Shown here: positions 5,695-19,297 of the stretch, in pieces
Numbering within the stretch: the first letter of the stretch is position 1
Layout of the letters: each line of letters starts with the position of its first letter
Assembly: GCF_003790525.1 (NCBI RefSeq)
Contig: NZ_CP033635.1
DNA from: Escherichia coli
GTDB taxonomy: Bacteria; Pseudomonadota; Gammaproteobacteria; Enterobacterales; Enterobacteriaceae
Length of the DNA stretch: 64,000 nucleotides
Reading direction: 5' to 3' (one strand)
Program-made: the position numbers and the translations under genes
The notes under the pieces: model-generated
The model's database searches: none
Told to the model about the DNA's origin: nothing
The model's input: the letters and a program-made list of their open reading frames with translations, nothing else

Positions 5695-6684
5695 TCAGTG
5701 GCTGATTTTTTTCAGCTGTTCTTCACTCAATCCCGTGATTTTCATGATGGTCTGAAGCCCCATTCCTTCAGCCAACATATTACGCGCCGTTTCCAGTTTG
5801 CCTTCCAGTTGTCCTTCGAGTCGCCCTTCGGCACGGCCTTCCATTCTGCCTTCCATTCTGCCTTCTAGCTTACCGCGCTCCATACCCTGGGCAATACCGC
5901 GCTCAAATCCCTTGACTTCCCCTTCCTGCTTCAGTTGTTCAGCCAGTGTCATTATGTTGCCCTCATGCTGTGGCAGCCGCTCCGCCAGCGTCTGCAAAAA
6001 CCTTACCGTCACATGTTCACTGCCGTTCAGCAGATAGTGGAACAGAGCCTTCGCCAGCTCTTCATTCAGTGAAGTCTGTATCAGCTGAACCAGCCTGTCC
6101 ATCTGCAGCATGATGTCGCGGCTGCGGCTGTGTTTCATCAGCAGCGTCAGTGCCCCCATTCGGCGGTGTTGCATTATCTCATCGTCATCCAGTACCGTCA
6201 CGTCCACCAGGTGGAACGGTCTGGTGTAGATTTTAGCAGCAAGTTCCGGATTTCTGAAACACTCCAGCCAGTTCATGCTGTACGGGTACGGGCTCCGCTC
6301 ACCGTGGTAGAATAACAGCGGGATCACCAGCGGCAGCTCATGGTGCTGTTCAAAGTGACGCTGCATCGCCGCCACCGCATATCTGAGCATCCTGAACGCC
6401 ATAAACGCGTTTTCCGTACTCTGGTGTTCCGCGAGGCAATAAATATACCCCTCCTCACCGCTGACGGTCTTCATGCTGAACAGCGCATCGCACGCATACT
6501 GTTTCAGATCCTGGTCCACAAAGGTACAGGGCTCCAGCCGCAGCGTCGACAGATCACACAACTGCCGGTATTCCGCCGGAAGATGCAGTTCAACAAAATC
6601 ACGGGCCACCTCTGCTGAGGCCATAAACGCCCTGAAGGCGGCATCATGCGGCGTGGGCGTATTTTTCTCTTTCCTGCTGCTCAC
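5695..6684 (-). CDS. Rpn-family recombination-promoting nuclease (YhgA-like putative transposase)
   Basis: 329-aa ORF with PDDEXK-like N-terminal region and the characteristic C-terminal EGRxEGR repeat tail of RpnA-E paralogs. Confidence 0.8.
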   Translation of the reverse strand: MSSRKEKNTPTPHDAAFRAFMASAEVARDFVELHLPAEYRQLCDLSTLRLEPCTFVDQDLKQYACDALFSMKTVSGEEGYIYCLAEHQSTENAFMAFRMLRYAVAAMQRHFEQHHELPLVIPLLFYHGERSPYPYSMNWLECFRNPELAAKIYTRPFHLVDVTVLDDDEIMQHRRMGALTLLMKHSRSRDIMLQMDRLVQLIQTSLNEELAKALFHYLLNGSEHVTVRFLQTLAERLPQHEGNIMTLAEQLKQEGEVKGFERGIAQGMERGKLEGRMEGRMEGRAEGRLEGQLEGKLETARNMLAEGMGLQTIMKITGLSEEQLKKISH

Positions 6685-6918
6685 TGTTTATCTCTTCTGA
6701 ACCAGGTAACATTAACAGAACATGTTTCAGGATATCCGCGCAGTGCGGAACATTACGGCTCACCACTGTGACGGCGGATCATCGCCACCCAGTATCCGAC
6801 AGACCCCTTACTTTGTTCGTAAACATCCTTCCTGCCCCCCTGAATCTCCAGACAACCAATATCACTTAAATAAGTGATAGTCTTAATACTAGTTTTTAGA
6901 CTAGTCATTGGAGAACAG

Positions 6919-7284
6919 ATGATTGATGTCTTAGGGCCGGAGAAACGCAGACGGCGTACCACACAGGAAAAGATCGCAATTGTTCAGCAGAGTTTTGAAC
7001 CGGGAATGACGGTCTCCCTTGTAGCCCGGCAACACGGTGTGGCAGCCAGCCAGCTATTTCTCTGGCGCAAGCAATACCAGGAGGGAAGTCTTACTGCTGT
7101 GGCCGCAGGAGAACAGGTCGTTCCTGCCTCTGAACTTGCTGCTGCCATGAAGCAGATTAAAGAACTCCAGCGCCTGCTCGGCAAAAAAACGATGGAAAAT
7201 GAACTCCTCAAAGAAGCCGTTGAATATGGACGGGCAAAAAAGTGGATAGCGCACGCGCCCTTATTGCCCGGGGATGGGGAGTAA
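6919..7284 (+). CDS. insC: IS2 transposase OrfA (InsC)
   Basis: [56 protein letters not shown]... is the IS2 OrfA sequence. Confidence 0.9.
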
Positions 7285-8147
7285 GCTTAGTCAGCCGTTG
7301 TCTCCGGGTGTCGCGTGCGCAGTTGCACGTCATTCTCAGACGAACCGATGACTGGATGGATGGCCGCCGCAGTCGTCACACTGATGATACGGATGTGCTT
7401 CTCCGTATACACCATGTTATCGGAGAGCTGCCCACGTATGGTTATCGTCGGGTATGGGCGCTGCTTCGCAGACAGGCAGAACTTGATGGTATGCCTGCGA
7501 TCAATGCCAAACGTGTTTACCGGATCATGCGCCAGAATGCGCTGTTGCTTGAGCGAAAACCTGCTGTACCGCCATCGAAACGGGCACATACAGGCAGAGT
7601 GGCTGTGAAAGAAAGTAATCAGCGATGGTGCTCTGACGGGTTCGAGTTCCGCTGTGATAACGGAGAAAAACTGCGAGTCACGTTCGCGCTGGACTGCTGT
7701 GACCGTGAGGCACTGCACTGGGCGGTCACTACGGGCGGCTTCAACAGTGAAACAGTACAGGACGTCATGCCAGGAGCGGTGGAACGCCGCTTCGGCAACG
7801 ATCTTCCGGCGTCTCCAGTAGAGTGGCTGACGGATAATGGTTCATGCTACCGGGCTAATGAAACACGGCAGTTTGCCCGGATGTTGGGGCTTGAACCGAA
7901 GAGCACGGCGGTGCGGAGTCCGGAGAGTAACGGCATAGCAGAGAGCTTCGTGAAAACGATAAAGCGTGACTACATCAGTATCATGCCTAAACCAGACGGG
8001 TTAACGGCAGCAAAGAACCTTGCAGAGGCGTTCGAGCATTATAACGAATGGCATCCGCATAGTGCACTGGGTTATCGCTCGCCACGGGAATATCTGCGGC
8101 AGCAGGCCAGTAATGGGTTAAGTGATAACAGGTGTCTGGAAATATAG
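7242..8147 (+). CDS. insD: IS2 transposase OrfB (InsD)
   Basis: 301-aa ORF with integrase-core catalytic region, overlapping orfA in the -1 frame as in IS3-family elements. Confidence 0.9.
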
Positions 8148-8199
8148 GGGCAAATCCACCTGAATCTGAGGCAGCACCTGGCACGGCTGGGACGGAAGT

Positions 8200-8441
8200 C
8201 GCTGTCGTTTTCAAAATCGGTGGAGCTGCATGACAAAGTCATCAGGCATTATCTGAACATAAAACACTATCAATAAGTTGGAGTCATTACCGTGTTCCCG
8301 ACAGACGACTCGGTGAAAAAAGTGGTGTGGCTGGCAATCCAGTCTGCGTCCCAGAAATGGACGATGCCGTTGAAGGACTGGCGAATGGCAATGAGCCGCT
8401 TTATTATCGAGTTCGGTGACCGCCTGGACGGTCACTTCTGA
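8200..8441 (+). mobile_element. IS256-family transposase 3' remnant
   Basis: Translation FPTDDSVKKVVWLAIQSASQKWTMPLKDWRMAMSRFIIEFGDRLDGHF* matches the conserved C-terminal tail of IS256-family transposases; only this tail is present, immediately right of IS2. Confidence 0.5.
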
Positions 8442-8473
8442 GAAAAGGCATTTACACAGAATCCTAAACAGGC

Positions 8474-9211
8474 TCATGTACAGCGCTGTACCGGGCAATG
8501 GGTAATACCGGTCACAACCGGTAACCCCAGAGACAATGCAACTGTTTTTAACGCAATATACTGGCCGGATGTATCACCCCGGGCAGCCTGAAAACACCTT
8601 TCCACCCGGCATTGTCCGTCAGCACTTATCACCCGCCATGTCTGTTGCAATAAATCCACCCGTTGCGAACATTCTTCATCAACCGTGGCACTGACCCGTG
8701 GATGGCAAATGCTCGTCTGGCTGAGCAGCAACAGGCATCGCATTGTTGCTCCTCCATGTTGTTCCCGCAACCAGCGTAATACCACCGGTGGTGCTGGACT
8801 GGCCGTGTGATTACGTTCAGTAATACGCTCGTGCACCTGTCGGTAAAAGGAAGTACAGAATGCATGAATCTGTTGTCCGTTGATGTTTCCTTCTGCCGAA
8901 TGGAGTGTGAAGTGGACGGCCAGCAGACGCGGCCAGTGATCCACCGCCTGCTGAATAAAACGCCGGATTTCCACCGGCTCTGAAAGTACGGTTTCGGTTA
9001 TTTGCACGATTTGATCCCCTTGAATGTTGCTGAACCGGTGTCGGTACGCAGGAAAGCACGCCGAGACCGGTACGATGCCTGTTACAGCGAAGAACGAGGA
9101 ATGACAGACGGGGGCAGCAGGTCGCCAGCACCAGGGACAGGGCTGATTTCCACAATACCAACGCTGGTATTTTGCACATTGCCAGCGTACCGGCATTACA
9201 ACACGTTTCAT
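8474..9211 (-). CDS. YagK/YfjJ-like (inovirus Gp2-like) protein, third tandem copy; possibly degenerate
   Basis: Central region (RLLAVHFTLH...NGQQIHAFCTSFYRQV...) parallels the two upstream paralogs; an internal Met at 9211 would overlap the alpA-like stop (ATGA). The N-terminal region is Cys/Trp-rich and atypical, so a frameshifted pseudogene is possible. Confidence 0.35.
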   Translation of the reverse strand: MKRVVMPVRWQCAKYQRWYCGNQPCPWCWRPAAPVCHSSFFAVTGIVPVSACFPAYRHRFSNIQGDQIVQITETVLSEPVEIRRFIQQAVDHWPRLLAVHFTLHSAEGNINGQQIHAFCTSFYRQVHERITERNHTASPAPPVVLRWLREQHGGATMRCLLLLSQTSICHPRVSATVDEECSQRVDLLQQTWRVISADGQCRVERCFQAARGDTSGQYIALKTVALSLGLPVVTGITHCPVQRCT

Positions 9212-9444
9212 GCTGCTGCCCCTCGTGATGCCTCGATTCGTTGCTGCATCCACTGCTCCACTTCACTTTTGTACCAGCGGCTGCTGCGCCCCAGTTTGAT
9301 GGGTTTAGGGAAATGGCCTTCACTGATCAGCTTGTAAAACCATTTGTCGGTCATACCAGTGAAGCTGGTGATGTAGTTCATGTCGATCAGGGGATCGTCG
9401 GCACGCAGCAATACGCTGTCGTGACCTGTCATTGAGGTCAACAT
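9208..9444 (-). CDS. AlpA-family prophage regulatory protein
   Basis: Contains ...FTGMTDKWFYKLISEGHFPKPIKLGRSSRWYKSEVEQWMQQRIEASRG, the typical AlpA-like helix-turn-helix of integrative islands. The true start is probably the internal Met at 9381. Confidence 0.7.
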   Translation of the reverse strand: MLTSMTGHDSVLLRADDPLIDMNYITSFTGMTDKWFYKLISEGHFPKPIKLGRSSRWYKSEVEQWMQQRIEASRGAAA

Positions 9445-9512
9445 GGTCAGAATGTCCTCTGTGAGATTTATGAATGTTGGGCAAATGCGGGTGAATCTGC
9501 TGAGCTGAGCTT

Positions 9513-10115
9513 TCAGAGCTGGCCTGCTACGGGATACCAGGGATTACCGGCGAGGTAACGGGCTTCCGGATCGCGCACACCACGACGATCGCGGGCGAAA
9601 TCACTGAACGCCCATATCAGCTCTTTGAGTCTCTCTTCGCAGTCCGGTGAACAACTGTCCAGCACCACATCCCGGGTTATCTGTTTCTGGTACGGTGCCG
9701 CTTCACCCGGTGAGGCGAAGCCCAGCACGTTGCTCCAGGCATCCAGAATCAGCCGATCCAGTTCAGGGCCGTCGAAATACTCCTGCCTGACGCACAGCAC
9801 CACGTGGTATTCCGGCTTTTCAGGATGACGTGTCAGGAGCCAGCAGAGGTCACGTCCGGGGGTTGCATTCATCAGGTCACTGACGGTTTCAATAAAGGCC
9901 ATACCGAACCAGGTCCTGCGGCTGCTGAAGGTATTATCGGGTTCCCACGGCAGACGAAGCAGGATACGTCGTATCCGGGAGCCGGACTGCTCACGCAGCG
10001 CACGGTCAAGAACGCCAATAACTTTGTTCTGATACGAGGGCCAGAAGGGTGCCATGCTGTCGTCGAAATAAGAGAAAGTATTCACAGGATATGCTCCGTT
10101 ATGCGCAGCCCACAA
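9513..10115 (-). CDS. YagK/YfjJ-family (inovirus Gp2-like) protein
   Basis: 200-aa ORF paralogous to 10418..11149; the only in-frame start before an upstream stop is a TTG. Confidence 0.5.
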   Translation of the reverse strand: MWAAHNGAYPVNTFSYFDDSMAPFWPSYQNKVIGVLDRALREQSGSRIRRILLRLPWEPDNTFSSRRTWFGMAFIETVSDLMNATPGRDLCWLLTRHPEKPEYHVVLCVRQEYFDGPELDRLILDAWSNVLGFASPGEAAPYQKQITRDVVLDSCSPDCEERLKELIWAFSDFARDRRGVRDPEARYLAGNPWYPVAGQL

Positions 10116-10417
10116 CGCGTCCTGCCCGGGGATGGATGGGCTGACGGGTTACAGGCTGCGGATGAGGTTGATGGAACAGGTGAAGAACCGACGCTGAGCG
10201 GGAATATCAGGGAAGAACATTCAGGGTGAATGAACTCCGTTGACTTCGGTTCACATCATTAAGCAGGGCGGTAAGGTTTTACCGACAGATTGTTTCCGGG
10301 TGCGGAAGCAGATACCGCTGCTGACTTCATGACGGGTTATCAGAATACGGGATAAGGGCATTGGCTGACTCTCTTACCGTGGCATAAGTTCAGGTACCGG
10401 ATACCGTTTTACCGACC

Positions 10418-11149
10418 TCACCTGCCATCCAGCAAACGCCCCGGCCCACGGCTGCAACCATAATTACGCTGACCGGAACCATTATGCTGCTTCGTTTTAT
10501 TTTTCACGAGATAACTGGCTCTGTTCCTGGCTTTCTGCATCGCTGCCACATCACCACGCTTGATCCAGAGAACAGCGGCTTCACCCGGCTTTTTTTCTGA
10601 AGCCTTCCTGGTATCAGAACATCCACCCGACAAAGGCGTGTCATCGGAAGAAGGGCGAGCATCAGACGATGCTGGTTTACGAAAAGGCTTCCACCTGGAA
10701 AAATGGACCAGGCCATCGCCTTGCCAGGGCTCAAGATGCAGAGCGCTGCACCATGCCTCCTGGATCATCGCCGCCAGCGAAGACGGTTCGCTGAAATCCC
10801 CGAGCGAGCACCAGGTATCTTTGTTGAGCAGCAATATCACGTGATAATGTTTCCTGTTTTCTTCCTCTCCGAACTCCCGGCACCAGAAATAACGCAGGCT
10901 GGTTGCATGCACACGCTGACTGGCACGTCGCTTATGCTGCTGGTAAGCCTGGATTTTGGCTTTCAGGGATTCGAAAAAACGAGAAATCACCGCTGAATCC
11001 GGATCGGGATCCATGATGGTGACAGGCATATACTCAGGGAAACGTAAATCCACCCGGATTAACGAGACGGCACGGTGCTGCGACAGGGCACTGTCGAGAA
11101 GGCTGTCAAAACGGGATAACCAGTAAGCATTGTGTATTGGTTGATTCAT
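10418..11149 (-). CDS. YagK/YfjJ-family (inovirus Gp2-like) protein
   Basis: 243-aa ORF with N-terminal ...AVSLIRVDLRFPEYM... motif recalled from CP4-57 YfjJ / CP4-6 YagK. Confidence 0.55.
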   Translation of the reverse strand: MNQPIHNAYWLSRFDSLLDSALSQHRAVSLIRVDLRFPEYMPVTIMDPDPDSAVISRFFESLKAKIQAYQQHKRRASQRVHATSLRYFWCREFGEEENRKHYHVILLLNKDTWCSLGDFSEPSSLAAMIQEAWCSALHLEPWQGDGLVHFSRWKPFRKPASSDARPSSDDTPLSGGCSDTRKASEKKPGEAAVLWIKRGDVAAMQKARNRASYLVKNKTKQHNGSGQRNYGCSRGPGRLLDGR

Positions 11150-11209
11150 GATGAGAGATCTCCGTTGATTTGGATTGACTTCACATCATTAATCACCGCG
11201 GTAAAACTT

Positions 11210-12720
11210 TACGGCATCATGTCATTAAGCAATGCTACAACTCTCTGATTAAGAGTGATTGAAACGGAACAAACCATCCCGGAACGAAAAGATAATCCTG
11301 CACACAGCAGCAAAACACGCAACAACAGCATGAATGGATTTAAAAACGACATGGACGACGAGAAAAGCCTGAAGGGAAAAGGATCCACAGAACATTCGAA
11401 CAAAACACCAGAAACGCAACCAGAACGCTTCCTGGCAATGCAAATCAACAACAACACCAAAACCTACAGCTTAATCACACAACTCAATCACGAATGCGAA
11501 TGACACGTTTAAAACCTGTTTACAGATAACGTCGTAACAAGATCATCCCCATCAGAATCGATTTTCTTATCTTGAGTATGTTACTTTTCAACATACCTAA
11601 ACGATTAACCACCGATAACGTAAATCTCATCTGAATCAAAACACCAAAACCAATCATCACGTTTTCGACAGAAGAAAAACACCACATCATGACAAAAAGA
11701 ATGACCTTACACGGAAAAGAAAAACGTCAGGAATCGTTAATGCATACCTCAATCTGATTGTTATCAAAACATCCAGAAAGTCGTTTAACAGAATCGTCGT
11801 AAGCACATCGAAAAGAACGTCAGATCACCTCAGGAAAGTTCGGGTTGATTTAGCGTAAAGATACTTTTCTCAGCTTAACGTCGAAACACAAACCAAAAAC
11901 CACAAACAACCAAAGCTCAGGAAAGGTTAAACGTCACATCAGTAAAATCGAATAGCAGATTGATTGCTTAAACAGGAAGGATTGTTTTACAGCAGCATTA
12001 AACTGATTTAGTTAACGTAAAATCAGAACTGACAGGTTTACTAACTTGGATGTGTATCAGTTCAAAAATGTGTACAGCAATGCGTAATGAAACACATTTA
12101 AAGGAGATTAATGGGAAAAGTGTGTAAATGCGTAAACATGCACTAATGAATCACTGAAGGAATACATACAAAACGACTTAATGAAAACATAAAAGGACCT
12201 AATGGAAAAGGTGTATATAATACCATATCCGACATTCTCAACATCTTAAGACATCCATGCAGACTGAATGTTGGTTTCAGTTTTTCACGGTAAGCATGAA
12301 TCTTTTCTGTTCAAAAGCAGAGCAGATTTACTCTGGAATTATTTTTCTTACTCCGTATTCTGTACAGCAAAAACTTGTGCTAACTTTACAGCAAACCATC
12401 ATAATCAGCGTCTGTAGTCCCATCGCTTTACCCCATGAAAGTGAATCCATATGATGCGAGAGAGATAAGTCATCGTATCCGGTAAACACTGCTAACCATA
12501 ACATAAGATCATTCAGTCAGTTTTATCTCTGAACTGACGATTATGGCATGCTCATTTATATGGCTCACAGAGGAGTGTTATTATCTGTAAGCTTTAATCA
12601 TCAAATCACATGACCATACCAAACTGGCGCTATATCAGCTCATTTGACACCCCTTCCCTTTAGATTTCTTTATGTGTTTTTTGTCGATAATTAAAATGTA
12701 ATATGAATTTAATATTTTTA
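11210..12720 (+). other. ~1.5 kb non-coding, strand-asymmetric A-rich tract
   Basis: No ORF of 60 aa or more between 11503 and 12257 in any frame; hand counts on sampled 60-nt blocks give roughly 38-45% A versus 12-23% T on the + strand. Confidence 0.6.
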
Positions 12721-12722
12721 CA

Positions 12723-13946
12723 TCATAAACACCATTTAAAACCATTATCCTGAACATCATACAACAATATATTTTTACTAAAGCATGAATTGTATATTTC
12801 TATTAATTCAGGAAAATTATCAGGATTCACCTTTAAATTCACCTGAATGTTACGCCTAATTTCACCCAGCAGTTTTTCATGCGTGAATTTTATTATTTCT
12901 TTATCATAATCTATAAATTCACACATGTTTTTTATGAATTCAAACCCTTTTCCTGTATACAGTTTGATGAATGCCACAAGAGCAAACATTTCAAGATGCA
13001 GCCATAATGCCACGTGAGTTTTTCGCAAAGTATAAAAAATTGAATTCACCTCTTTTTTACTTATTGCTCTTTTGTACTGTGAGTGTGCCAGATTCAGTAG
13101 TGGCAATTCTCTCTCGATAAATGAAAGTGAAAAAGGCGGGTAAATTGATGTCGGAAATATTTTAGGTCTTATGATATTTTCTATTTCCACCATAAATCTA
13201 TCCATAGAAAGAAAATCATTTTCTTTTTTTATTCTGGTATAGAGACCGCCTTTATTTCTTACTGCGACTTTTTTTCGTGCTACCCCCCCCAACACTTCCT
13301 CTAATTGTTTATTTATCTTCGTATCATTAAATACAACCATTCTTCTTATCATCCTGGGAAGGATGATAATATCAGAGCTTGAATCACTTGAACGGTAATT
13401 ATTATTGATCCATGCAACTTCAAGTTGAAGTATCGGAACATTAAATTCTCTGGGGTTAATAACTCTCTGATATTGTTTTTTGTATGCGTTTTTATTAAGA
13501 TATTCTCTGCTGTAGAGAAACTTATAGCAATATAATCTGACAATATCCTTTATGTAAGATTTAAATGAGTCACCTGTAACAGATATATTTTTTCTGCTCA
13601 GTAACTCCTGTGTATTGAGCCATTCCCGTGACCGGAGTACTCCCTTATGAAGACTTTTTCTTACTTGCATTGAACTGCGCAATTGATGTAATATTTTTGC
13701 GTCCTCAACAATTCTCTTTCCCGTTTGATTTCTTGCAGCATCTATTACTCTGTCAAATATCTCCCGGTCCAGACTTTTGTCATATTTACTGATTATACGA
13801 CAAATATTCCTGACCCGACGGTTCTCTTTATTTCGTTTCCATAACTGATAATGATCATCACATAACCTCAGGGCATTTGCCTCATCAAATTCTGAAACAG
13901 GATTGCTGCATTTTTTATTCCGACAGATACCTTTGTTTTTAGCCAT
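12723..13946 (-). CDS. hypothetical protein, 407 aa, very low GC, N-terminal Cys/His cluster
   Basis: Long uninterrupted ORF in a region of roughly 30% GC (hand count on sampled blocks); K/N/I-rich; N-terminus GICRNKKCSNP...LCDDHY suggests a zinc-ribbon-like motif. No family recognised. Confidence 0.6.
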   Translation of the reverse strand: MAKNKGICRNKKCSNPVSEFDEANALRLCDDHYQLWKRNKENRRVRNICRIISKYDKSLDREIFDRVIDAARNQTGKRIVEDAKILHQLRSSMQVRKSLHKGVLRSREWLNTQELLSRKNISVTGDSFKSYIKDIVRLYCYKFLYSREYLNKNAYKKQYQRVINPREFNVPILQLEVAWINNNYRSSDSSSDIIILPRMIRRMVVFNDTKINKQLEEVLGGVARKKVAVRNKGGLYTRIKKENDFLSMDRFMVEIENIIRPKIFPTSIYPPFSLSFIERELPLLNLAHSQYKRAISKKEVNSIFYTLRKTHVALWLHLEMFALVAFIKLYTGKGFEFIKNMCEFIDYDKEIIKFTHEKLLGEIRRNIQVNLKVNPDNFPELIEIYNSCFSKNILLYDVQDNGFKWCL

Positions 13947-14000
13947 ACTCTTCTTCCCGTCAATGGAAAATTTTTCACGTCCATATTACCTGACTGAGAG

Positions 14001-14021
14001 ACCGGATTAATGTGATCCGGT
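14001..14021 (+). promoter_or_regulatory. inverted repeat in the divergent intergenic region
   Basis: ACCGGAT-taatgtg-ATCCGGT perfect 7-bp arms, between the divergent 407-aa ORF and the GTPase gene. Confidence 0.3.
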
Positions 14022-14046
14022 TCAGTGAAATCAACAGGATACCGGT

Positions 14047-14931
14047 ATGTCATTCAGCCATTCTTCCCTTTCCGCACACGTAAAATCACATCTGACCTTT
14101 CTTCCTGAAGAAATACGCCAGAAAATCCTTGAATATCTTCACAGCGTCATTCAGTACGAACCCGTGATTGGCATTATGGGTAAATCCGGTGCCGGAAAAA
14201 GCAGCCTGTGCAATGCCATTTTTCAGTCCCGTGTCTGCGCCACGCATCCACTGAACGGCTGCACCCGTCAGGCTCATCGTCTTACCTTTCAGCCTGGTGA
14301 ACGCAGAATGACGCTCGTCGATCTGCCCGGCACTGGCGAAACACCACAGCATGATCAGGAATACCGGGCACTTTACCGTCAGTTACTGCCCGAACTGGAT
14401 CTGATTATCTGGATCCTGCGTGCTGATGAACGTGCGTATGCTGCCGACATCGCCATGCATCAGTTTTTACTGAATGAAGGTGCCGATCCCTCGCGTTTTC
14501 TGTTTGTTCTCAGCCATGCTGATCGCATCCACCCGGCTGAAGAATGGAACAGCCAGAGCAACACGCCATCCCGTCAGCAGGAACTCTCACTGGCAACAGT
14601 AACAGCCCGGGTGGCAACCCTGTTCCCTTCATCATTTCCGGTACTCCCCATAGCTGCCCCTGCAGGCTGGAATCTTCCGGCATTTGTGTCACTGATGATC
14701 CACGCCCTGCCACCACAGGCAACCAGCACGGTTTATTCGCATATCCGGAATGAAAAGCGCACTGCGCAGGATCAGCAACACGCACAGCAGGCTTTTGGTG
14801 ACGCCATCGGCCAGAGCTTTGACGCGGCCATTGCCCGGTTCAGCTTTCCGGCCTGGATGCTGCAGCTTCTGCGTAAAGCCCGTGATCGCATTATCCGCCT
14901 GCTGGTCACACTGTGGGATCGCCTGTTCTGA
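14047..14931 (+). CDS. YeeP/YfjP/YkfA-family GTPase (50S ribosome-binding GTPase domain)
   Basis: 294-aa ORF with P-loop GIMGKSGAGKSS and overall resemblance to K-12 prophage GTPases YfjP/YeeP. Confidence 0.85.
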   Translation: MSFSHSSLSAHVKSHLTFLPEEIRQKILEYLHSVIQYEPVIGIMGKSGAGKSSLCNAIFQSRVCATHPLNGCTRQAHRLTFQPGERRMTLVDLPGTGETPQHDQEYRALYRQLLPELDLIIWILRADERAYAADIAMHQFLLNEGADPSRFLFVLSHADRIHPAEEWNSQSNTPSRQQELSLATVTARVATLFPSSFPVLPIAAPAGWNLPAFVSLMIHALPPQATSTVYSHIRNEKRTAQDQQHAQQAFGDAIGQSFDAAIARFSFPAWMLQLLRKARDRIIRLLVTLWDRLF

Positions 14932-15116
14932 ATTTCCCCGCTTTTTGACCGGCACAGACGATGACCAGGGAACGCATTTCCGGCGGCTTTACCACAATGC
15001 TGAAGGGCTTTTGGTAAACCTCATTCATTTCATCCATCAGGCAGCGTCTTCTCCGGGAGATGCGGCTTTTTCATTGATTACGTCAGTCAGTCTTAACCAC
15101 TGATAAGGAGCAAAGT

Positions 15117-15935
15117 ATGCGATTAGCCAGTCGTTTTGGTTATGCGAACCAGATACGCCGTGACCGTCCGCTGACACATGAAGAGCTGATGCACCATGTG
15201 CCCGGGATTTTCGGGGAGGATAAGCACACCTCCCGGAGCCGGAACTATACATACATCCCCACCATCACCGTGCTGGAAAGCCTGCAACGGGAAGGCTTTC
15301 AGCCGTTCTTTGCCTGCCAGACCCGCGTGCGTGACCCGGGACGCCGGGGATACACAAAGCACATGCTGCGTCTGCGCCGTGACGGGGAGATAAACGGACA
15401 GCATGTCCCTGAAATCATCCTGCTCAACTCCCATGACGGCACCTCCAGCTACCAGATGCTGCCGGGTTACTTCCGGTTCGTGTGTCAGAACGGATGTGTC
15501 TGTGGTCAGTCTCTCGGAGAGGTGCGTGTCCCGCACCGGGGAGACGTGGTGGACAGGGTCATTGAAGGGGCTTACGAGGTGGTGGGCGTGTTTGACCGGA
15601 TAGAGGAAAAGCGTGATGCCATGCAGTCACTGATTTTACCACCACCGGCTCGTCAGGCGCTGGCACAGGCCGCCCTGACTTACCGTTATGGTGACGAACA
15701 TCAGCCCGTCACCACCGCCGACATTCTGACACCACGACGCCGGGAGGATTACGGTCAGGACCTGTGGAGTGCTTATCAGACCATCCAGGAGAATATGCTG
15801 AAAGGCGGGATTTCCGGTCGCAGTGCAAAAGGAAAACGTATCCATACCCGGGCCATTCACAGCATTGATACCGATATAAAACTCAACCGCGCATTGTGGG
15901 TGATGGCAGAAACGCTGCTGGAGAGCATGCGCTGA
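15117..15935 (+). CDS. DUF932 protein (YfjQ-like)
   Basis: 272-aa ORF closely resembling CP4-57 YfjQ (MRLASRFG...YTYIPTI...FFACQ.RVRD...). Confidence 0.85.
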   Translation: MRLASRFGYANQIRRDRPLTHEELMHHVPGIFGEDKHTSRSRNYTYIPTITVLESLQREGFQPFFACQTRVRDPGRRGYTKHMLRLRRDGEINGQHVPEIILLNSHDGTSSYQMLPGYFRFVCQNGCVCGQSLGEVRVPHRGDVVDRVIEGAYEVVGVFDRIEEKRDAMQSLILPPPARQALAQAALTYRYGDEHQPVTTADILTPRRREDYGQDLWSAYQTIQENMLKGGISGRSAKGKRIHTRAIHSIDTDIKLNRALWVMAETLLESMR

Positions 15936-16016
15936 TGCCGTTTCCCTGAGTGAGGGAATCATTCAGCTTTCGTTCCTGAAAAACACACATTTATTTGTTA
16001 TTTAAGGAGTTATCTC

Positions 16017-16457
16017 ATGAAAACCGTTTCTCAGAATACCCCCACAATTTATTCAGCTACAACACCAGAGAATAATCCGCCTCAGTTGGTTGCCAGCCTC
16101 GTCCCTGATGAACAGCGCATCAGCTTCTGGCCGCAGCATTTTGGCCTCATTCCACAGTGGGTGACCCTGGAGCCCCGTGTCTTCGGCTGGATGGACCGTC
16201 TGTGCGAAGACTACTGCGGTGGTATCTGGAATCTGTACACCCTGAACAACGGCGGCGCATTTATGGCCCCCGAACCGGATGATGATGATGACGAAACATG
16301 GGTACTGTTCAATGCCATGAACGGTAACCGCGCTGAAATGAGCCCGGAAGCCGCCGGCATTGCTGCCTGTCTGATGACGTACAGTCATCATGCCTGTCGT
16401 ACGGAGTGTTATGCCATGACGGTTCATTATTACCGTCTGCGGGATTACGCCCTGTAG
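16017..16457 (+). CDS. antirestriction protein (YfjX/KlcA/ArdB-like)
   Basis: 146-aa ORF with the conserved FWPQHFGLIPQW...GWMDRLCEDYCGGIW motif block. Confidence 0.8.
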   Translation: MKTVSQNTPTIYSATTPENNPPQLVASLVPDEQRISFWPQHFGLIPQWVTLEPRVFGWMDRLCEDYCGGIWNLYTLNNGGAFMAPEPDDDDDETWVLFNAMNGNRAEMSPEAAGIAACLMTYSHHACRTECYAMTVHYYRLRDYAL

Positions 16458-16511
16458 CATCCGGAATGCAGCGCCATTATGCGCATCATTGACTGAAAGG
16501 GGGCCGGAACA

Positions 16512-16988
16512 ATGCAACAGATTTCCTTTCTGCCCGGAGAAATGACAACCAGAGAGCGCAGCCTCATTCAGCGGGCCCTGAAAGCCCTGGACCGCCATCT
16601 TCATGAACCCGGCGTGGCCTTCACCTCCACCCGTGCGGCACGGGAATGGCTGATTCTGAACATGGCGGGACTGGAGCGGGAAGAGTTCCGGGTGCTGTAC
16701 CTGAACAACCAGAATCAGCTGATTGCCGGTGAAACCCTCTTCACCGGCACCATCAACCGCACGGAAGTCCATCCCCGGGAGGTGGTTAAACGCGCCCTGT
16801 ACCACAATGCCGCTGCCGTGGTGCTGGCACACAATCATCCGTCCGGTGAAGTCACACCCGGTAAGGCAGACCGGCTTATCACTGAACGTCTGGTACAGGC
16901 ACTGGCCCTGGTGGATATCCGGGTGCCGGACCATCTGATAATCGGTGGCAGCCGGGTGTTCTCCTTTGCCGAACACGGTCTGCTTTAA
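16512..16988 (+). CDS. RadC-like JAB-domain protein (YeeS/YfjY/YkfG-like)
   Basis: 158-aa ORF with JAMM motif HNHPSG...; typical island position after the antirestriction gene. Confidence 0.85.
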   Translation: MQQISFLPGEMTTRERSLIQRALKALDRHLHEPGVAFTSTRAAREWLILNMAGLEREEFRVLYLNNQNQLIAGETLFTGTINRTEVHPREVVKRALYHNAAAVVLAHNHPSGEVTPGKADRLITERLVQALALVDIRVPDHLIIGGSRVFSFAEHGLL

Positions 16989-17077
16989 TCCGTCACCGTC
17001 ACAACCACCTTCATATTGTCACTTCAGTTTCTCTTTCTCAGCTGTTTCTCACTTTCACATTCAGGAGGACTGTTCTC

Positions 17078-17299
17078 ATGAAAATCGTCACCCGTGGTGA
17101 AGCCATGCGCGTTCACCGTCAGTATCCGTCATCCCGTCTTTTTCCGTTCTGCACCGGTAAGTACCGCTGGCACGGCGGCACTGAGGCGTATACCGGTCGT
17201 GAAGTGCAGGATATCCCCGGCGTACTGGCCGTGTTTGCCGAACGCCGCAAGGACAGTTTTGGCCCGTATGTCCGGCTGATGAGCGTCACCCTGAACTGA
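17078..17299 (+). CDS. DUF987 protein (YeeT/YkfH-like)
   Basis: 73-aa ORF MKIVTRGEAMRVHRQ...; size and position match DUF987 genes of CP4-type islands. Confidence 0.7.
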   Translation: MKIVTRGEAMRVHRQYPSSRLFPFCTGKYRWHGGTEAYTGREVQDIPGVLAVFAERRKDSFGPYVRLMSVTLN

Positions 17300-17303
17300 G
17301 TCA

Positions 17304-17960
17304 GTGGAGATGCTGATGAGCAGCATTATCACCACCACCGTGTATACGCTGAATGAACTTTCCGCCACAGCACGGGAAAAAGCCCGCGGCTGGTACCGTC
17401 AGCATCATGCTGACAGCCGCTGGTATGAAAACGTGTATGAGGACTTCAGGGCGGTCTGTGAGATTGTCGGGATTGTCCTCCGCCAGCGTGTTATCCGGCT
17501 CAGCAGCGGCAGGTTTATGGAAGAGCCGTGCATCTGGTTCAGCGGATTCTGCAGCCAGGGGGACGGAGCCTGTTTTGAAGGGCGCTGGCACTGGCAGCCG
17601 GCAACAGCCAGGCGAGTCCGGGAATATGCCCCGCAGGACCGTGAGCTTCATCGTATCACGGATGCCCTGCAGGCGGTGCAGAAGCATAACTTCCGGCAGT
17701 TACAGGCTGAAATCCGTCACCGGGGACGCTACTGCCATCCGTACAGCATGGATATCACCGTCACCCGGGACAGCCCGACCGGACAGGCAATGACAGCCGG
17801 CGCGGAAACCGTTGTCTGTGACGCCCTGCGGGACCTGGCCTTCTGGTTATACAGTCAACTGGAAAACGAGTACGACTGGCTGACCTCAGATGACGCCGTG
17901 GATGAGGCGCTTCTCATCAACGGATACACCTTCACCGAAGCCGGTCTGCGCGCCGGCTGA
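17304..17960 (+). CDS. hypothetical protein, 218 aa, unrecognised family
   Basis: ORF starts 5 nt after the DUF987 stop and lies between DUF987 and the CbeA-like antitoxin; Cys/Trp/His-rich (CIWFSGFCSQGDGACFEGRWHW). Confidence 0.5.
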   Translation: MEMLMSSIITTTVYTLNELSATAREKARGWYRQHHADSRWYENVYEDFRAVCEIVGIVLRQRVIRLSSGRFMEEPCIWFSGFCSQGDGACFEGRWHWQPATARRVREYAPQDRELHRITDALQAVQKHNFRQLQAEIRHRGRYCHPYSMDITVTRDSPTGQAMTAGAETVVCDALRDLAFWLYSQLENEYDWLTSDDAVDEALLINGYTFTEAGLRAG

Positions 17961-18010
17961 CCCGTCATTGTTAAAACCATTCTTAACCGATTATCAGTGA
18001 GGACTTTATC

Positions 18011-18388
18011 ATGTCAGACACACTCACCGGGACAACGCATCCCGACGACAACAGCGACCGCCCCTGGTGGGGGCTGCCCTGCACCGTGACGCCCTGTTTC
18101 GGTGCCCGTCTGGTGCAGGAGGGTAACCGCCTGCATTACCTTGCAGACCGCGCCGGCATCAGAGGCCGGTTCAGCGACGCAGATGCGTACCACCCGGACC
18201 AGGCCTTTCCGCTGCTGATGAAACAGCTGGAACTCATGCTCACCAGTGGTGAACTCAGTCCCCGCCATCAGCATACCGTCACACTGTATGCGAAAGGGCT
18301 GACCTGCGAAGCCGACACCCTCGGCAGTTGTGGTTACGTGTATATCGCCATTTATCCGACACCGGCAACACCCGGAACCACCGCATAA
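18011..18388 (+). CDS. cbeA: CbeA/YeeU-family type IV antitoxin
   Basis: [52 protein letters not shown]... is near-identical to YeeU/CbeA as recalled. Confidence 0.85.
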
Positions 18389-18434
18389 CCCCGGACAGCA
18401 CTTCTTTATCACCACCTGTTACAGAGTACTTAAG

Positions 18435-18809
18435 ATGAAAACATTCCCCGACACACATGTACGGGCAACATCGCGCTGCCCGTCTCCGGTTGAAATCTGG
18501 CAGACACTGCTCACCCGGTTGCTGGACCAGCACTACGGCCTCACGCTGAATGACACACCGTTCGCCGATGAACGTGTGATTGAACAGCATATTGAGGCAG
18601 GTATTTCACTGTGTGATGCGGTGAACTTTCTCGTGGAAAAATACGCACTGGTGCGTACCGACCAGCCGGGATTCAGTGCCTGCACCCGCTCTCAGTTAAT
18701 CAACAGCATTGATATCCTCCGGGCCCGCCGGGCAACCGGCCTGATGACCCGCAGCCACTACCGAATGGTGAGCAACATCACCCTGGGTAAACACTGTGAG
18801 GTGAAATGA
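18435..18809 (+). CDS. cbtA: CbtA/YeeV-family type IV toxin
   Basis: ...[65 protein letters not shown]... matches CbtA/YeeV. Start set at the ATG at 18435 rather than the longer ORF-track start. Confidence 0.85.
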
Positions 18810-19297
18810 TGAAACTGTCCCTGACGCTGGAAGCAGACAGCGTTAACGTCCGGGCACTGAACATGGGGCGCATTGTCGCTGACGTCGATGGTGTTAATCT
18901 CGCTGAACTGATTAACGTGGTCTGCGATAACGGCTGTTCCCTTCGTGTTGTTGATGAATCTGACCGGACCTCAGCAGACTGCATGCCACCATTTACTGCC
19001 CTTACCGGCATACGCTGCAGTACCGCACATATCACGGAACAGGACAATGCCTGGCTGTACTCGCTGTCGCATCAGACGAATGACAACGGCGAATCAGAAT
19101 GGATTCATTTTACAGGCAGCGGATATCTGTTACGTACTGATGCGTGGTCGTACCCGGCTCTGCGGCTTAAACGCCTGGGGCTGTCAAAAACCTTCCGCCG
19201 TCTGGTTGTCACACTTATCCGGCGTTATGGCGTCAGTCTCATTCATCTGGATGCCGGCGCTGAATGTCTGCCGGGTTTACCCACTTTCGACTGGTAA
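18806..19297 (+). CDS. YeeW-like protein (DUF5983)
   Basis: 163-aa ORF overlapping the cbtA stop, in the position occupied by yeeW in CP4-44. Confidence 0.65.

What the first reader, a model, noticed from the sequence alone, without database searches (positions are those of the whole stretch)
8474..11149. Three tandem YagK/YfjJ-like paralogs with alpA nested between them, one with a TTG start and one possibly degenerate
Tandem triplication of an inovirus Gp2-like (replication-initiator family) gene is unusual. The middle copy (9513-10115) has only a TTG as possible start before an upstream stop. The third copy (8474-9211) overlaps the alpA stop in an ATGA arrangement but has an atypical Cys/Trp-rich N-terminal region, so this may be a family undergoing duplication and decay.
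Basis: partly seen in the sequence, partly recalled or inferred. Interest (0 to 1): 0.35.

Follow-up and report, generated by a model that had tools for sequence, protein, structure and literature searches.

The report
Conserved island module of Rep-like paralogs
This is an ordinary, very common backbone module of E. coli genomic islands, made of one intact and two catalytically degenerate rolling-circle-initiator-like genes around the regulator alpA; it is not a recent gene triplication in decay, and the odd Cys/Trp-rich 'N-terminus' is a separate, unannotated zinc-ribbon-like mini-gene.

Summary
The ORFs exist, but two of the three start coordinates are wrong. ORF1 (10418-11149) is a clear YagK/YfjJ (inovirus Gp2-like) protein with HYH and YxxK motifs.

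ORF2 starts at GTG 10085, not TTG 10115; this codon is ATG in 59 of 61 relatives. It is a divergent YagK/YfjJ homologue (hhalign 97.5%, E 7.6e-12) that lacks the first His and the Tyr.

ORF3 proper starts at GTG 9007. It belongs to another family (PF27752/UCP030791) that is remotely similar to the same domain (hhalign 85.5%, E 5.7e-6) and has none of the catalytic residues.

The Cys/Trp-rich stretch is a separate small zinc-ribbon-like ORF overlapping the alpA stop (ATGA). It has its own stop in about 62 of 90 related loci and is fused in frame to ORF3 here.

The three genes share no DNA similarity and 16-24% protein identity. dN/dS is 0.19-0.33. The ORF2-alpA-ORF3 block matches 2829 of 5426 complete E. 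coli genomes.

So the paralogy is ancient and maintained, not a recent triplication in decay. Function is untested. I infer an AlpA-controlled excision/replication module, with a conserved leader element ahead of both ORF1 and ORF2.

The parts
11150..11215 (-). Leader element A. It runs from the imperfect palindrome CCGTAAAGTTTTACCG through TTAATGATGTGAA to GTCAATCCAAATCAACGGAG (which includes the SD), directly upstream of the ORF1 ATG.
   Evidence: Repeat families D1-D4. The conserved core is aligned across 46 unique variants. The motif lies 43 nt before the ORF1 start in 27 of 27 loci.
10418..11149 (-). ORF1: canonical YagK/YfjJ ('inovirus Gp2 family') protein of 243 aa, with RVDLR, HYH (HUH-like) and YLVK..K motifs.
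   Evidence: PF11726 at E 1.9e-37 and PF23343 REP_ORF2-G2P at 2.3e-7. Weak matches to PHROG 'replication initiation protein' families. The motifs are invariant or nearly so in the family alignment A3. 243 aa in 25 of 27 relatives; dN/dS 0.32.
10219..10285 (-). Leader element B: a second copy of the same roughly 55-65 nt element (CGGTAAAACCTTACCG ... TTAATGATGTGAA ... GTCAACGGAG), about 135 nt upstream of the ORF2 start.
   Evidence: 75-82% identical to element A. Conserved while its flanks vary. Present 177-222 nt before ORF2 in 57 of 57 loci, and it stays with ORF2 when cargo separates ORF1 from ORF2.
9513..10085 (-). ORF2: divergent YagK/YfjJ paralogue of 190 aa with a GTG start. The HUH position reads EYH, and the position of the catalytic Tyr is Asp.
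   Evidence: The start position is ATG in 59 of 61 relatives, with a GGAG/GGAA SD. hhalign to the ORF1 family gives 97.5%, E 7.6e-12. The A2 HMM hits K-12 YfjJ at 1.2e-10. P0193 matches PF11726 at 1.4e-10. Motif comparison. dN/dS 0.19, and 186-205 aa in 61 of 61 loci.
9208..9444 (-). alpA: AlpA/Vis-type HTH regulator of 78 aa.
   Evidence: PF05930 at E 2e-10. PHROG 'excisionase and transcriptional regulator' at 6e-10. dN/dS 0.04.
9122..9211 (-). Conserved 30-codon core of a small unannotated zinc-ribbon-like ORF (MKRVVMPVRWQCAK[C/Y]QRWYCGNQPCPWCWR). Its ATG overlaps the alpA stop (ATGA). In this window Cys15 is Tyr, and the ORF has no stop of its own and runs on into the ORF3 frame.
   Evidence: Alignment A5. 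30-51 aa with its own stop in about 62 of 90 loci, fused in 12 of 90, and disrupted by an out-of-frame deletion in 13 of 90. For codons 1-17, pN/pS is 0.35 in frame against about 1.0 in the other two frames. No match in Pfam, NCBIfam, PHROGs or PADLOC.
9008..9121 (-). Spacer between the mini-ORF core and the ORF3 start. It is open in frame here, but its length and frame are not conserved.
   Evidence: The distance from the mini-ORF ATG to the ORF3 GTG is 203-285 nt, with frame classes 0:38, 2:20, 1:4. Indels are visible in A5. Extended translations do not match between variants.
8474..9007 (-). ORF3: PF27752 / 'UCP030791' family protein, 177 aa here and 182 aa in intact copies, with a GTG start. 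It is a remote relative of the N-terminal ~125 residues of the YagK/YfjJ domain, with no HUH histidines and no Tyr segment.
   Evidence: 99% identical to PGAP-annotated 182-aa proteins. Precomputed PF27752 on homologues. hhalign gives 53.5% against A3 and 85.5% (E 5.7e-6) against A7. The AF2 model has pLDDT 66 with a Rep/palm-like alpha-beta fold. dN/dS 0.33.
8292..8475 (+). Right-end remnant of IS1414 (IS256 family), abutting and replacing the last five codons of ORF3.
   Evidence: 100% identical over 184 nt to the IS1414 end in L003. Similarity to uninterrupted E. coli loci starts at 8476.

Best explanation
The region is the conserved regulatory/replication-type backbone of a very common family of E. 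coli genomic islands of the CP4-57/PAI type.

It holds two co-directional units, each headed by the same roughly 55-nt leader element.
- Unit 1 is ORF1, a YagK/YfjJ protein that keeps the motifs expected of an HUH (Rep-like) single-strand nuclease: RVDLR, HYH and YxxK.
- Unit 2 is ORF2, alpA, a small zinc-ribbon-like ORF and ORF3.

ORF2 and ORF3 are ancient, strongly diverged paralogues of the same domain. Both have lost the catalytic residues yet are kept under purifying selection.

Shown here: homology, motif loss, selection, prevalence, gene starts, the separate mini-ORF and the duplicated leader.

Inferred, not shown:
- AlpA, a known activator or antiterminator type of island regulator, acts at the shared leader and drives both units.
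- ORF1 nicks DNA to start replication or mobilisation of the excised island.
- ORF2 and ORF3 act as non-catalytic DNA-binding or partner subunits.

In this particular window the copy is slightly eroded. The ORF2 start is GTG rather than ATG, the mini-ORF has Cys15Tyr and is fused to ORF3, and the ORF3 3' end is cut by IS1414.

The confidence of 0.7 applies to the descriptive part (a conserved module of ancient paralogues, not a recent triplication). The mechanistic steps listed as inferred are much less certain.
For: - ORF1: PF11726 at E 1.9e-37 and PF23343 at 2.3e-7. Weak PHROG replication-initiator matches. Motifs invariant or nearly so in A3.
- ORF2: hhalign 97.5%, E 7.6e-12. Its HMM hits YfjJ at 1.2e-10, ORF1 at 3.4e-7 and YagK at 1e-3. 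P0193 bridges to PF11726.
- Motif loss in ORF2 and ORF3.
- No DNA similarity among the three genes.
- dN/dS is 0.32, 0.19, 0.04 and 0.33 for ORF1, ORF2, alpA and ORF3, and most copies are intact.
- The ORF2-alpA-ORF3 block is present in every one of the 90 related loci whose contig is long enough. ORF1 is either adjacent or separated by 2-9 kb of cargo.
- Prevalence: 2829 of 5426 genomes match, 1213 of them over at least 80% of the block.
- The leader element precedes 27 of 27 ORF1 genes and 57 of 57 ORF2 genes.
- Literature: Gp2-like and alpA genes are core genes of tmRNA-site islands in Pseudomonas (10.1101/2024.08.29.610337). The Shigella SRL PAI has several Gp2-family ORFs and a Vis/AlpA gene (PMC6980539). 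A Pseudomonas regulator named AlpA loads at a promoter-embedded element and acts as an antiterminator (PMC7969949, PMC9371919).
Against: - I found no experimental function for any YagK/YfjJ protein, so HUH activity of ORF1 rests on motifs and weak profile matches only.
- The consensus scan found no sigma-70 promoter in either leader.
- The mini-ORF is disrupted in 13 of 90 loci and carries Cys15Tyr here.
- The 90 comparison loci were selected by the mini-ORF DNA pattern. They describe this module type only and are not phylogenetically independent.
Confidence: 0.7

Rival explanations
1. One reading: a recent local tandem triplication of one Gp2-like gene, with the middle and third copies now decaying into pseudogenes.
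For: The three genes are adjacent, co-directional and related. A roughly 65-nt leader is duplicated at 75-82% identity. In this window ORF2 has a non-ATG start, and the ORF3 end is cut by an IS.
Against: There is no DNA similarity between the coding sequences, and protein identity is 16-24%. The ORF2 profile is closer to K-12 YfjJ than to its neighbour ORF1. dN/dS is 0.19-0.33 and most copies are full length. The same three distinct families recur in more than a thousand genomes.
Confidence: 0.04
2. ORF3 (PF27752/UCP030791) is not homologous to YagK/YfjJ. The similarity is a chance or compositional match between two small alpha-beta proteins, so only two paralogues are present.
Against: The same alignment register, covering motif I, the W.RE...LLL strand and the LIQQAW helix, comes back from BLASTP, from hhalign against A3 and from hhalign against A7. 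Probability rises to 85.5% (E 5.7e-6) with a broader profile. Rep-type proteins appear among the fold hits. PGAP names some members 'inovirus Gp2 family' or 'YagK/YfjJ domain-containing'.
Confidence: 0.17
3. The two leader elements are not promoters or operators but the DNA targets (hairpin plus nick site, i.e. origins) of the ORF1 Rep-like nuclease. As direct repeats that bracket ORF1 and variable cargo, they could define a rolling-circle-mobilised segment.
For: Each element has a palindrome (CGGTAAA-N-TTTACCG) followed by a conserved run, as HUH substrates often do. The two copies are direct repeats flanking ORF1, and in many loci 2-9 kb of cargo lies between them. No sigma-70 consensus was found in them.
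Against: Element A includes the ORF1 SD and abuts its ATG. Element B always travels with ORF2, at 177-222 nt. That is what a shared promoter/leader would look like. Cargo also sits outside the bracket, downstream of ORF3. I searched for no excised circles or empty sites.
Confidence: 0.15
4. In this window the 245-codon ORF from ATG 9211 is a genuine fusion protein: an N-terminal zinc ribbon joined to the ORF3 domain, translationally coupled to alpA.
For: The frame is open from 9211 to 8474. The same fused form occurs in 12 of 90 loci, and some gene callers call it as 250-aa proteins, e.g. P0065 with 226 member sequences.
Against: The linker frame and length are not conserved. Most loci terminate the mini-ORF after 30-51 codons. 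The internal GTG with its SD is universally kept. PGAP annotates only the short form. The fused variant here also carries Cys15Tyr in the first CxxC.
Confidence: 0.2

Closest known systems
YfjJ and YagK of the E. coli K-12 cryptic prophages CP4-57 and CP4-6 (Pfam PF11726, 'inovirus Gp2 family protein')
   Same: ORF1 is a full-length member. It matches PF11726 at E 1.9e-37 and shares the RVDL, HYH and Y..K..K motifs with YfjJ and YagK. ORF2 is a divergent member. As in CP4-57, the gene lies in an island next to alpA.
   Different: K-12 has one copy per island, in the order alpA-yfjI-yfjJ. Here the order is ORF1-ORF2-alpA-miniORF-ORF3, with two extra paralogues that lack the catalytic residues. 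ORF1 also carries a roughly 45-residue low-complexity insertion.
HUH (Rep-type) rolling-circle initiators and relaxases, e.g. Pfam PF23343 REP_ORF2-G2P and the SIRV1 ORF119 Rep
   Different: No nicking activity, origin or replicating form is known for this family. ORF2 and ORF3 lack the His pair and the Tyr. Profile searches of the PDB by sequence found no solved relative.
AlpA / Vis family regulators (CP4-57 AlpA, P4 Vis; P. aeruginosa AlpA antiterminator)
   Same: The 78-aa protein matches PF05930 at E 2e-10 and 'excisionase and transcriptional regulator' PHROGs. It sits in an integrative island, as those regulators do.
   Different: Its targets here are unknown. The P. aeruginosa AlpA-binding motif GGGACG-N5-GGTA (PMC7969949) is not evident in the leader elements. 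No integrase lies within the fetched flanks downstream of ORF3.
Gp2-like plus alpA core genes of tmRNA-site genomic islands in Pseudomonas, and of the Shigella SRL PAI
   Same: A Gp2-like gene and alpA co-occur as conserved island core genes. The SRL PAI is annotated with several Gp2-family ORFs and a Vis/AlpA gene (10.1101/2024.08.29.610337; PMC6980539).
   Different: These are different hosts and island families. Those papers give annotation only, so the arrangement and the degenerate paralogues cannot be compared in detail.

Membership tests
YagK/YfjJ (Pfam PF11726) - ORF1 | Match to the PF11726 HMM above the gathering score (25.8 bits) over most of the profile | tested here: met
   129.2 bits, E 1.9e-37, profile positions 2-170 of 170.
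YagK/YfjJ (Pfam PF11726) - ORF2 | Match to the PF11726 HMM above the gathering score | tested here: not met
   11.6 bits, E 0.27. Only 4 of 11 family members give any match.
YagK/YfjJ (Pfam PF11726) - ORF2 | Homology to family members shown by profile or transitive evidence | tested here: met
   hhalign of A2 against A3 gives 97.5%, E 7.6e-12 over 115 columns. The A2 HMM hits YfjJ at 1.2e-10. P0193 is 36% identical to ORF2 (E 4.7e-17) and scores 41.8 bits on PF11726.
YagK/YfjJ (Pfam PF11726) - ORF3 | Match to the PF11726 HMM above the gathering score | tested here: not met
   No match at E up to 10 for the window protein or any of the 16 family members.
YagK/YfjJ (Pfam PF11726) - ORF3 | Remote homology by profile-profile comparison and fold | tested here: inconclusive
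   hhalign gives 53.5% (E 1.3e-4) against A3 and 85.5% (E 5.7e-6) against A7, in the same register. The model has pLDDT 66, with Rep-like proteins among otherwise generic fold hits. AFDB was not available.
HUH endonuclease / Rep superfamily | His-hydrophobic-His metal-binding motif on a central beta strand | tested here: met
   For ORF1 only. K100-H101-Y102-H103 is nearly invariant in A3. ORF2 has E-Y-H and ORF3 has M-R-C at these columns, so the feature is not met for ORF2 or ORF3.
HUH endonuclease / Rep superfamily | Catalytic Tyr (YxxK-type motif) downstream of the HUH motif | tested here: met
   For ORF1 only. Y213, L214, K216 and K220 are invariant in A3. The ORF2 subfamily has Asp at this column, and ORF3 lacks the segment altogether.
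HUH endonuclease / Rep superfamily | Metal-dependent ssDNA cleavage with a covalent 5'-phosphotyrosine intermediate at a defined origin | not testable with these tools
   This needs biochemistry. I found no paper reporting it for YagK/YfjJ.
AlpA / Phage_AlpA (PF05930) | Match to the PF05930 HMM above the gathering score (21 bits) | tested here: met
   40.8 bits, E 2e-10.
PF27752 / 'UCP030791 family putative phage-derived protein' - ORF3 | Membership of the family as annotated by Pfam (precomputed) and PGAP | tested here: met
   Met by proxy. P0063 is 99% identical to ORF3, and all 120 listed homologues carry precomputed PF27752. PGAP names WP_001167455.1 'UCP030791 family'. The model is not in the local Pfam copy, so no score could be computed.

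The most novel reading that the evidence does not exclude
The module is a 'one enzyme plus two pseudo-enzymes' system. An intact HUH Rep-like nuclease (ORF1) works with two catalytically dead paralogues (ORF2, ORF3), an AlpA regulator and a previously unannotated zinc-ribbon microprotein that is translationally coupled to alpA. The twice-repeated hairpin-containing leader serves as the common control or nick site for excision-coupled replication or mobilisation of a very widespread class of E. coli pathogenicity and fitness islands.
Probability: 0.2. Interest if true: 0.5.

Novelty: new member of a known kind. Interest (0 to 1): 0.25.

Why it matters
- These islands carry many E. coli virulence, fitness and defence cargoes, yet how they excise, replicate or move is poorly understood, and YagK/YfjJ proteins are still of unknown function.
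- ORF2 is annotated only as 'hypothetical protein'. Recognising it as a degenerate member of the family improves annotation.
- The 'long' ORF3 is two genes, one of them an unannotated zinc-ribbon mini-ORF. This also improves annotation.
- Both units share one conserved leader element, which gives concrete targets for experiments: nicking assays, AlpA binding and TSS mapping.
- As a genome-scan finding, however, it is an ordinary and extremely common island backbone.

Tried and rejected
- Direct Pfam and NCBIfam scans of ORF2 and ORF3 gave nothing useful.
- An exhaustive phmmer search of ORF2 against 1.84 billion representatives found only its own narrow family plus two distant full-length relatives, and no canonical YagK/YfjJ.
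- Profile searches of PDB sequences with A2, A3 and A4 gave no hits at E up to 10.
- The single-sequence AlphaFold model of ORF2 was poor (pLDDT 52.7), so I did not use it for fold search.
- The afdb50 fold library was unavailable.
- A genome-contig scan and a viral-contig scan for ORF3 relatives gave only 2 loci and 1 locus, all close relatives, so they did not deepen the alignment.
- A viral-contig scan for the mini-ORF pattern gave none.
- Exact look-up of two mini-ORF peptides found neither in the protein collection.
- Rfam found no RNA family in 8000-13000.
- The promoter/terminator consensus scan found no more sites than shuffles would give.
- PADLOC found no defence-system match except a weak alpA-like HTH hit.
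- K-12 CP4-57 has no comparable mini-ORF after alpA.
- Literature searches for YfjJ/YagK function, UCP030791, PF27752 and the peptide found only annotation-level mentions.
- Rejected idea: the zinc ribbon in P0098 (PF11682) does not explain the Cys-rich region. It is a C-terminal fusion to a different downstream gene.
- Rejected idea: ORF2 once started at the ATG inside leader B (10218). That ATG is absent from most variants and is out of frame.
Full report
**What is in the sequence**

Between 8474 and 11149 all relevant ORFs lie on the minus strand. The order of transcription is ORF1 (10418-11149), ORF2, alpA (9208-9444), ORF3.
- alpA matches Pfam Phage_AlpA (PF05930) at E 2e-10.
- ORF1 matches YagK_YfjJ_C (PF11726) at E 1.9e-37 and REP_ORF2-G2P (PF23343) at E 2.3e-7.
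- ORF1 also gives weak matches to PHROG 'replication initiation protein' families.
- Neither ORF2 nor ORF3 matches PF11726 directly. ORF2 scores E 0.27, and ORF3 gives nothing even at E 10.

**Gene starts**

Ten codons downstream, at 10085, is a GTG preceded by GGAG at 8 nt.
- In 59 of 61 related loci this codon is ATG, with the same GGAG/GGAA.
- PGAP starts the gene there in E. coli genomes.
- The two distant full-length relatives, P0193 and P0199, begin at the same alignment column.

- ORF3 proper starts at GTG 9007. This codon is GTG in 62 of 62 relatives and is preceded by a purine-rich SD-like run.
- PGAP annotates 182-aa proteins from this start that are 99% identical to the window's.
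- The distance from the ATG that overlaps the alpA stop to this GTG varies from 203 to 285 nt. It falls in all three frame classes (38, 20 and 4 loci).
- Translations of the extension do not match between variants.

**The Cys/Trp-rich stretch**

The first 30 codons after the ATGA overlap are conserved: MKRVVMPVRWQCAK(C/Y)QRWYCGNQPCPWCWR. In about 62 of the 90 loci examined they form a separate ORF of 30-51 codons with its own stop.
- The layout CxxC...CxxC looks like a zinc ribbon.
- In codons 1-17, which my search pattern did not constrain, pN/pS is 0.35 in this frame and about 1.0 in the other two. Segregating sites by codon position number 4, 5 and 10. The sample is small and not independent, but this looks like coding sequence.
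- The ORF is not annotated by PGAP and matches no family in Pfam, NCBIfam, PHROGs or PADLOC.
- In the window, as in 12 of 90 loci, a 1-nt difference removes its stop, so it runs in frame into ORF3. The window also has Tyr in place of the second Cys.
- In 13 of 90 loci an out-of-frame deletion destroys the ORF. Its functional status is therefore probable, not certain.

**Are the three genes paralogues?**

For ORF2 the answer is yes.
- BLASTP against ORF1 gives 24% identity over 121 residues (E 0.002 for the single comparison).
- hhalign of the ORF2 family (A2) against the ORF1 family (A3) gives 97.5% probability, E 7.6e-12.
- An HMM built from the ORF2 family finds K-12 YfjJ at E 1.2e-10, the neighbouring ORF1 at 3.4e-7 and YagK at 1e-3.
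- P0193 is 36% identical to ORF2 (E 4.7e-17) and scores 41.8 bits on PF11726, above the 25.8-bit cut-off.
- The ORF2 family is very narrow. An exhaustive search of 1.84 billion representatives found only E. coli-type sequences and those two distant relatives.

For ORF3 the answer is probably yes, but remotely.
- Its close relatives carry a separate Pfam family, PF27752, which is not in the local library.
- PGAP names them variously 'UCP030791 family', 'YagK/YfjJ domain-containing' or 'inovirus Gp2 family'.
- hhalign against the ORF1 family gives 53.5% (E 1.3e-4). Against a broader ORF1+YfjJ+YagK+ORF2 profile (A7) it gives 85.5% (E 5.7e-6). Both are in the register already hinted at by BLASTP.
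- ORF2 against ORF3 directly is not significant (E 0.15).
- An AlphaFold model of ORF3 built from the shallow family alignment has pLDDT 66 and pTM 0.64, with alpha-beta-alpha-beta-beta-alpha-beta-alpha order.
- Foldseek against BFVD gives weak hits that include rudivirus Rep, parvovirus NS1 and an 'Inovirus Gp2' model.
- The AFDB library was unavailable.

**Catalytic motifs**

In the ORF1 family the columns R-V-D-L-R, K-H-Y-H and Y-L-x-K-x-x-x-K are invariant or nearly so. K-12 YfjJ and YagK share them. H-Y-H fits the HUH pattern and YxxK fits a catalytic-Tyr motif; this reading rests on my general knowledge of HUH nucleases.

The ORF2 subfamily has E/C/F-Y-H at the HUH columns and Asp at the Tyr column. 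ORF3 has M/I-R-C and lacks the C-terminal segment altogether. ORF2 and ORF3 are therefore predicted to be non-catalytic. No paper I could find reports a function for YagK/YfjJ.

**Recent triplication and decay?**

No.
- The three coding sequences share no DNA similarity beyond chance words.
- Across the related loci most copies are full length: ORF1 is 243 aa in 25 of 27, ORF2 is 186-205 aa in 61 of 61, and ORF3 is 182 aa in 40 of 59 with most others 166-183 aa.
- Median pairwise dN/dS is 0.32 for ORF1, 0.19 for ORF2, 0.04 for alpA and 0.33 for ORF3.
- The ORF2-alpA-ORF3 block is present in every one of the 90 loci whose contig reaches far enough. ORF1 lies either directly upstream or 4-10 kb upstream, with cargo in between. 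One example is E. coli LH50-c, where an acyltransferase, a hydrolase and a YfjI-family gene sit between them.
- The 90 loci were chosen by the mini-ORF DNA pattern, so they describe this module type only.
- Independently, megablast of the ORF2-alpA-ORF3 block finds matches in 2829 of 5426 complete E. coli genomes. 1213 of them cover at least 80% of the block, with a median of two places per genome and up to eight.
- K-12 CP4-57 and CP4-6 have the simpler single-copy arrangement.

**Local erosion in this window**
- The ORF2 start is GTG instead of ATG.
- The mini-ORF has Cys15Tyr and is fused to ORF3.
- ORF3 loses its last five codons to an IS1414 end at 8292-8475, which is 100% identical to IS1414 in strain TUM1886. 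An IS2 lies just beyond it.

**A shared leader element**

The 65 nt immediately upstream of the ORF1 ATG (11150-11215) recur at 10219-10285, about 135 nt upstream of the ORF2 start, at 75-82% identity.
- Across 46 unique variants the conserved core is CGGTAAA-N-TTACCGC..TG.TTAATGATGTGAA..GTCAACGGAG, while the flanks vary.
- The TTAATGATGTGAA motif lies 43 nt before ORF1 in 27 of 27 loci and 177-222 nt before ORF2 in 57 of 57 loci. It stays with ORF2 when cargo separates the two genes.
- A leader kept at this level next to genes that are only about 20% identical implies a functional cis element.
- My preferred reading is a common promoter/operator, since TGnTTAATG resembles an extended -10 box and a palindrome lies just upstream. 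That would make ORF1 and ORF2-alpA-miniORF-ORF3 two co-regulated units, possibly controlled by AlpA.
- The consensus scan did not call a sigma-70 promoter there, and Rfam finds nothing.
- The alternative is a hairpin plus nick site for the ORF1 nuclease. Direct repeats bracketing ORF1 and its cargo fit that idea, so I keep it as a rival.

**How it most likely works (inference)**

AlpA-family proteins activate excision functions in CP4-57-type elements. A Pseudomonas regulator named AlpA loads at a promoter-embedded element and acts as a processive antiterminator (PMC7969949, PMC9371919). Gp2-like and alpA genes are core genes of other integrative islands (10.1101/2024.08.29.610337; PMC6980539).

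I therefore propose three steps:
- AlpA switches on both leader-headed units.
- ORF1 nicks island DNA to start replication or mobilisation after excision.
- ORF2, ORF3 and the zinc-ribbon peptide are non-catalytic DNA-binding or partner components.

None of these steps was or could be tested here.

**Verdict**

Paralogy holds; recent triplication and decay do not. The module is a common, already annotated island backbone.

The modestly new points are:
- ORF2 belongs to the YagK/YfjJ family and has lost its catalytic residues.
- The 'long' ORF3 splits into a mini-ORF and ORF3 proper.
- One leader element is duplicated ahead of both units.

Interest is low to moderate.

Noticed in passing
window 9122-9211 (-): An unannotated, conserved, zinc-ribbon-like mini-ORF (30-51 codons in relatives) whose ATG overlaps the alpA stop. 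It matches no family in Pfam, NCBIfam, PHROGs or PADLOC. In this window it is fused in frame to ORF3 and carries Cys15Tyr.
   Followed up: yes
window 11150-11215 and 10219-10285 (-): A conserved roughly 55-65 nt element with a palindrome (CGGTAAA-N-TTTACCG) and TTAATGATGTGAA. It occurs twice per island, before ORF1 (27 of 27 loci) and before ORF2 (57 of 57 loci). Its function is unknown; it could be a promoter/operator or a nick site.
   Followed up: partly
window 8292-8475 and about 6832-8160: An IS1414 (IS256-family) right-end remnant abuts the ORF3 3' end. An IS2-like element (orfA 6874-7284, orfB 7242-8147) lies immediately beyond it, and an Rpn-family nuclease gene at 5695-6684. The native downstream neighbour of ORF3, a ProQ/FinO-like gene in other loci, is missing here.
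   Followed up: partly
L004 (E. coli LH50-c) 11500-19179: A variant island with about 6 kb of cargo (acyltransferase, alpha/beta hydrolase, YfjI-family protein, a frameshifted hypothetical gene) between ORF1 and the ORF2-alpA-ORF3 block. The frameshifted gene at 12314-12879 gives very weak hits to the ORF1 and ORF2 profiles (E 0.12-0.74) and may be a further decayed paralogue.
   Followed up: no
window 12723-13946 (-) and 11150-12722: A 407-aa ORF with no Pfam or PADLOC match lies between the module and the YfjP-like GTPase gene (14047-14931). It is separated from ORF1 by about 1.5 kb with no ORF over 83 aa. PGAP annotates a doubtful 82-aa low-complexity 'hypothetical protein' there (11255-11503, + strand) in relatives.
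   Followed up: no
proteins P0013, P0018: Some assemblies encode 286-287-aa products in which ORF2 is fused to the alpA domain (PF05930). These are presumably frameshift or stop-loss variants joining the two genes.
   Followed up: no
ORF1, residues about 150-195 (window about 10565-10700): E. coli-type ORF1 proteins carry a roughly 45-residue Ser/Pro/Asp-rich insertion between the HUH region and the Tyr motif. It is absent from the 189-195-aa homologues of other genera (Rouxiella, Serratia, Providencia).
   Followed up: no
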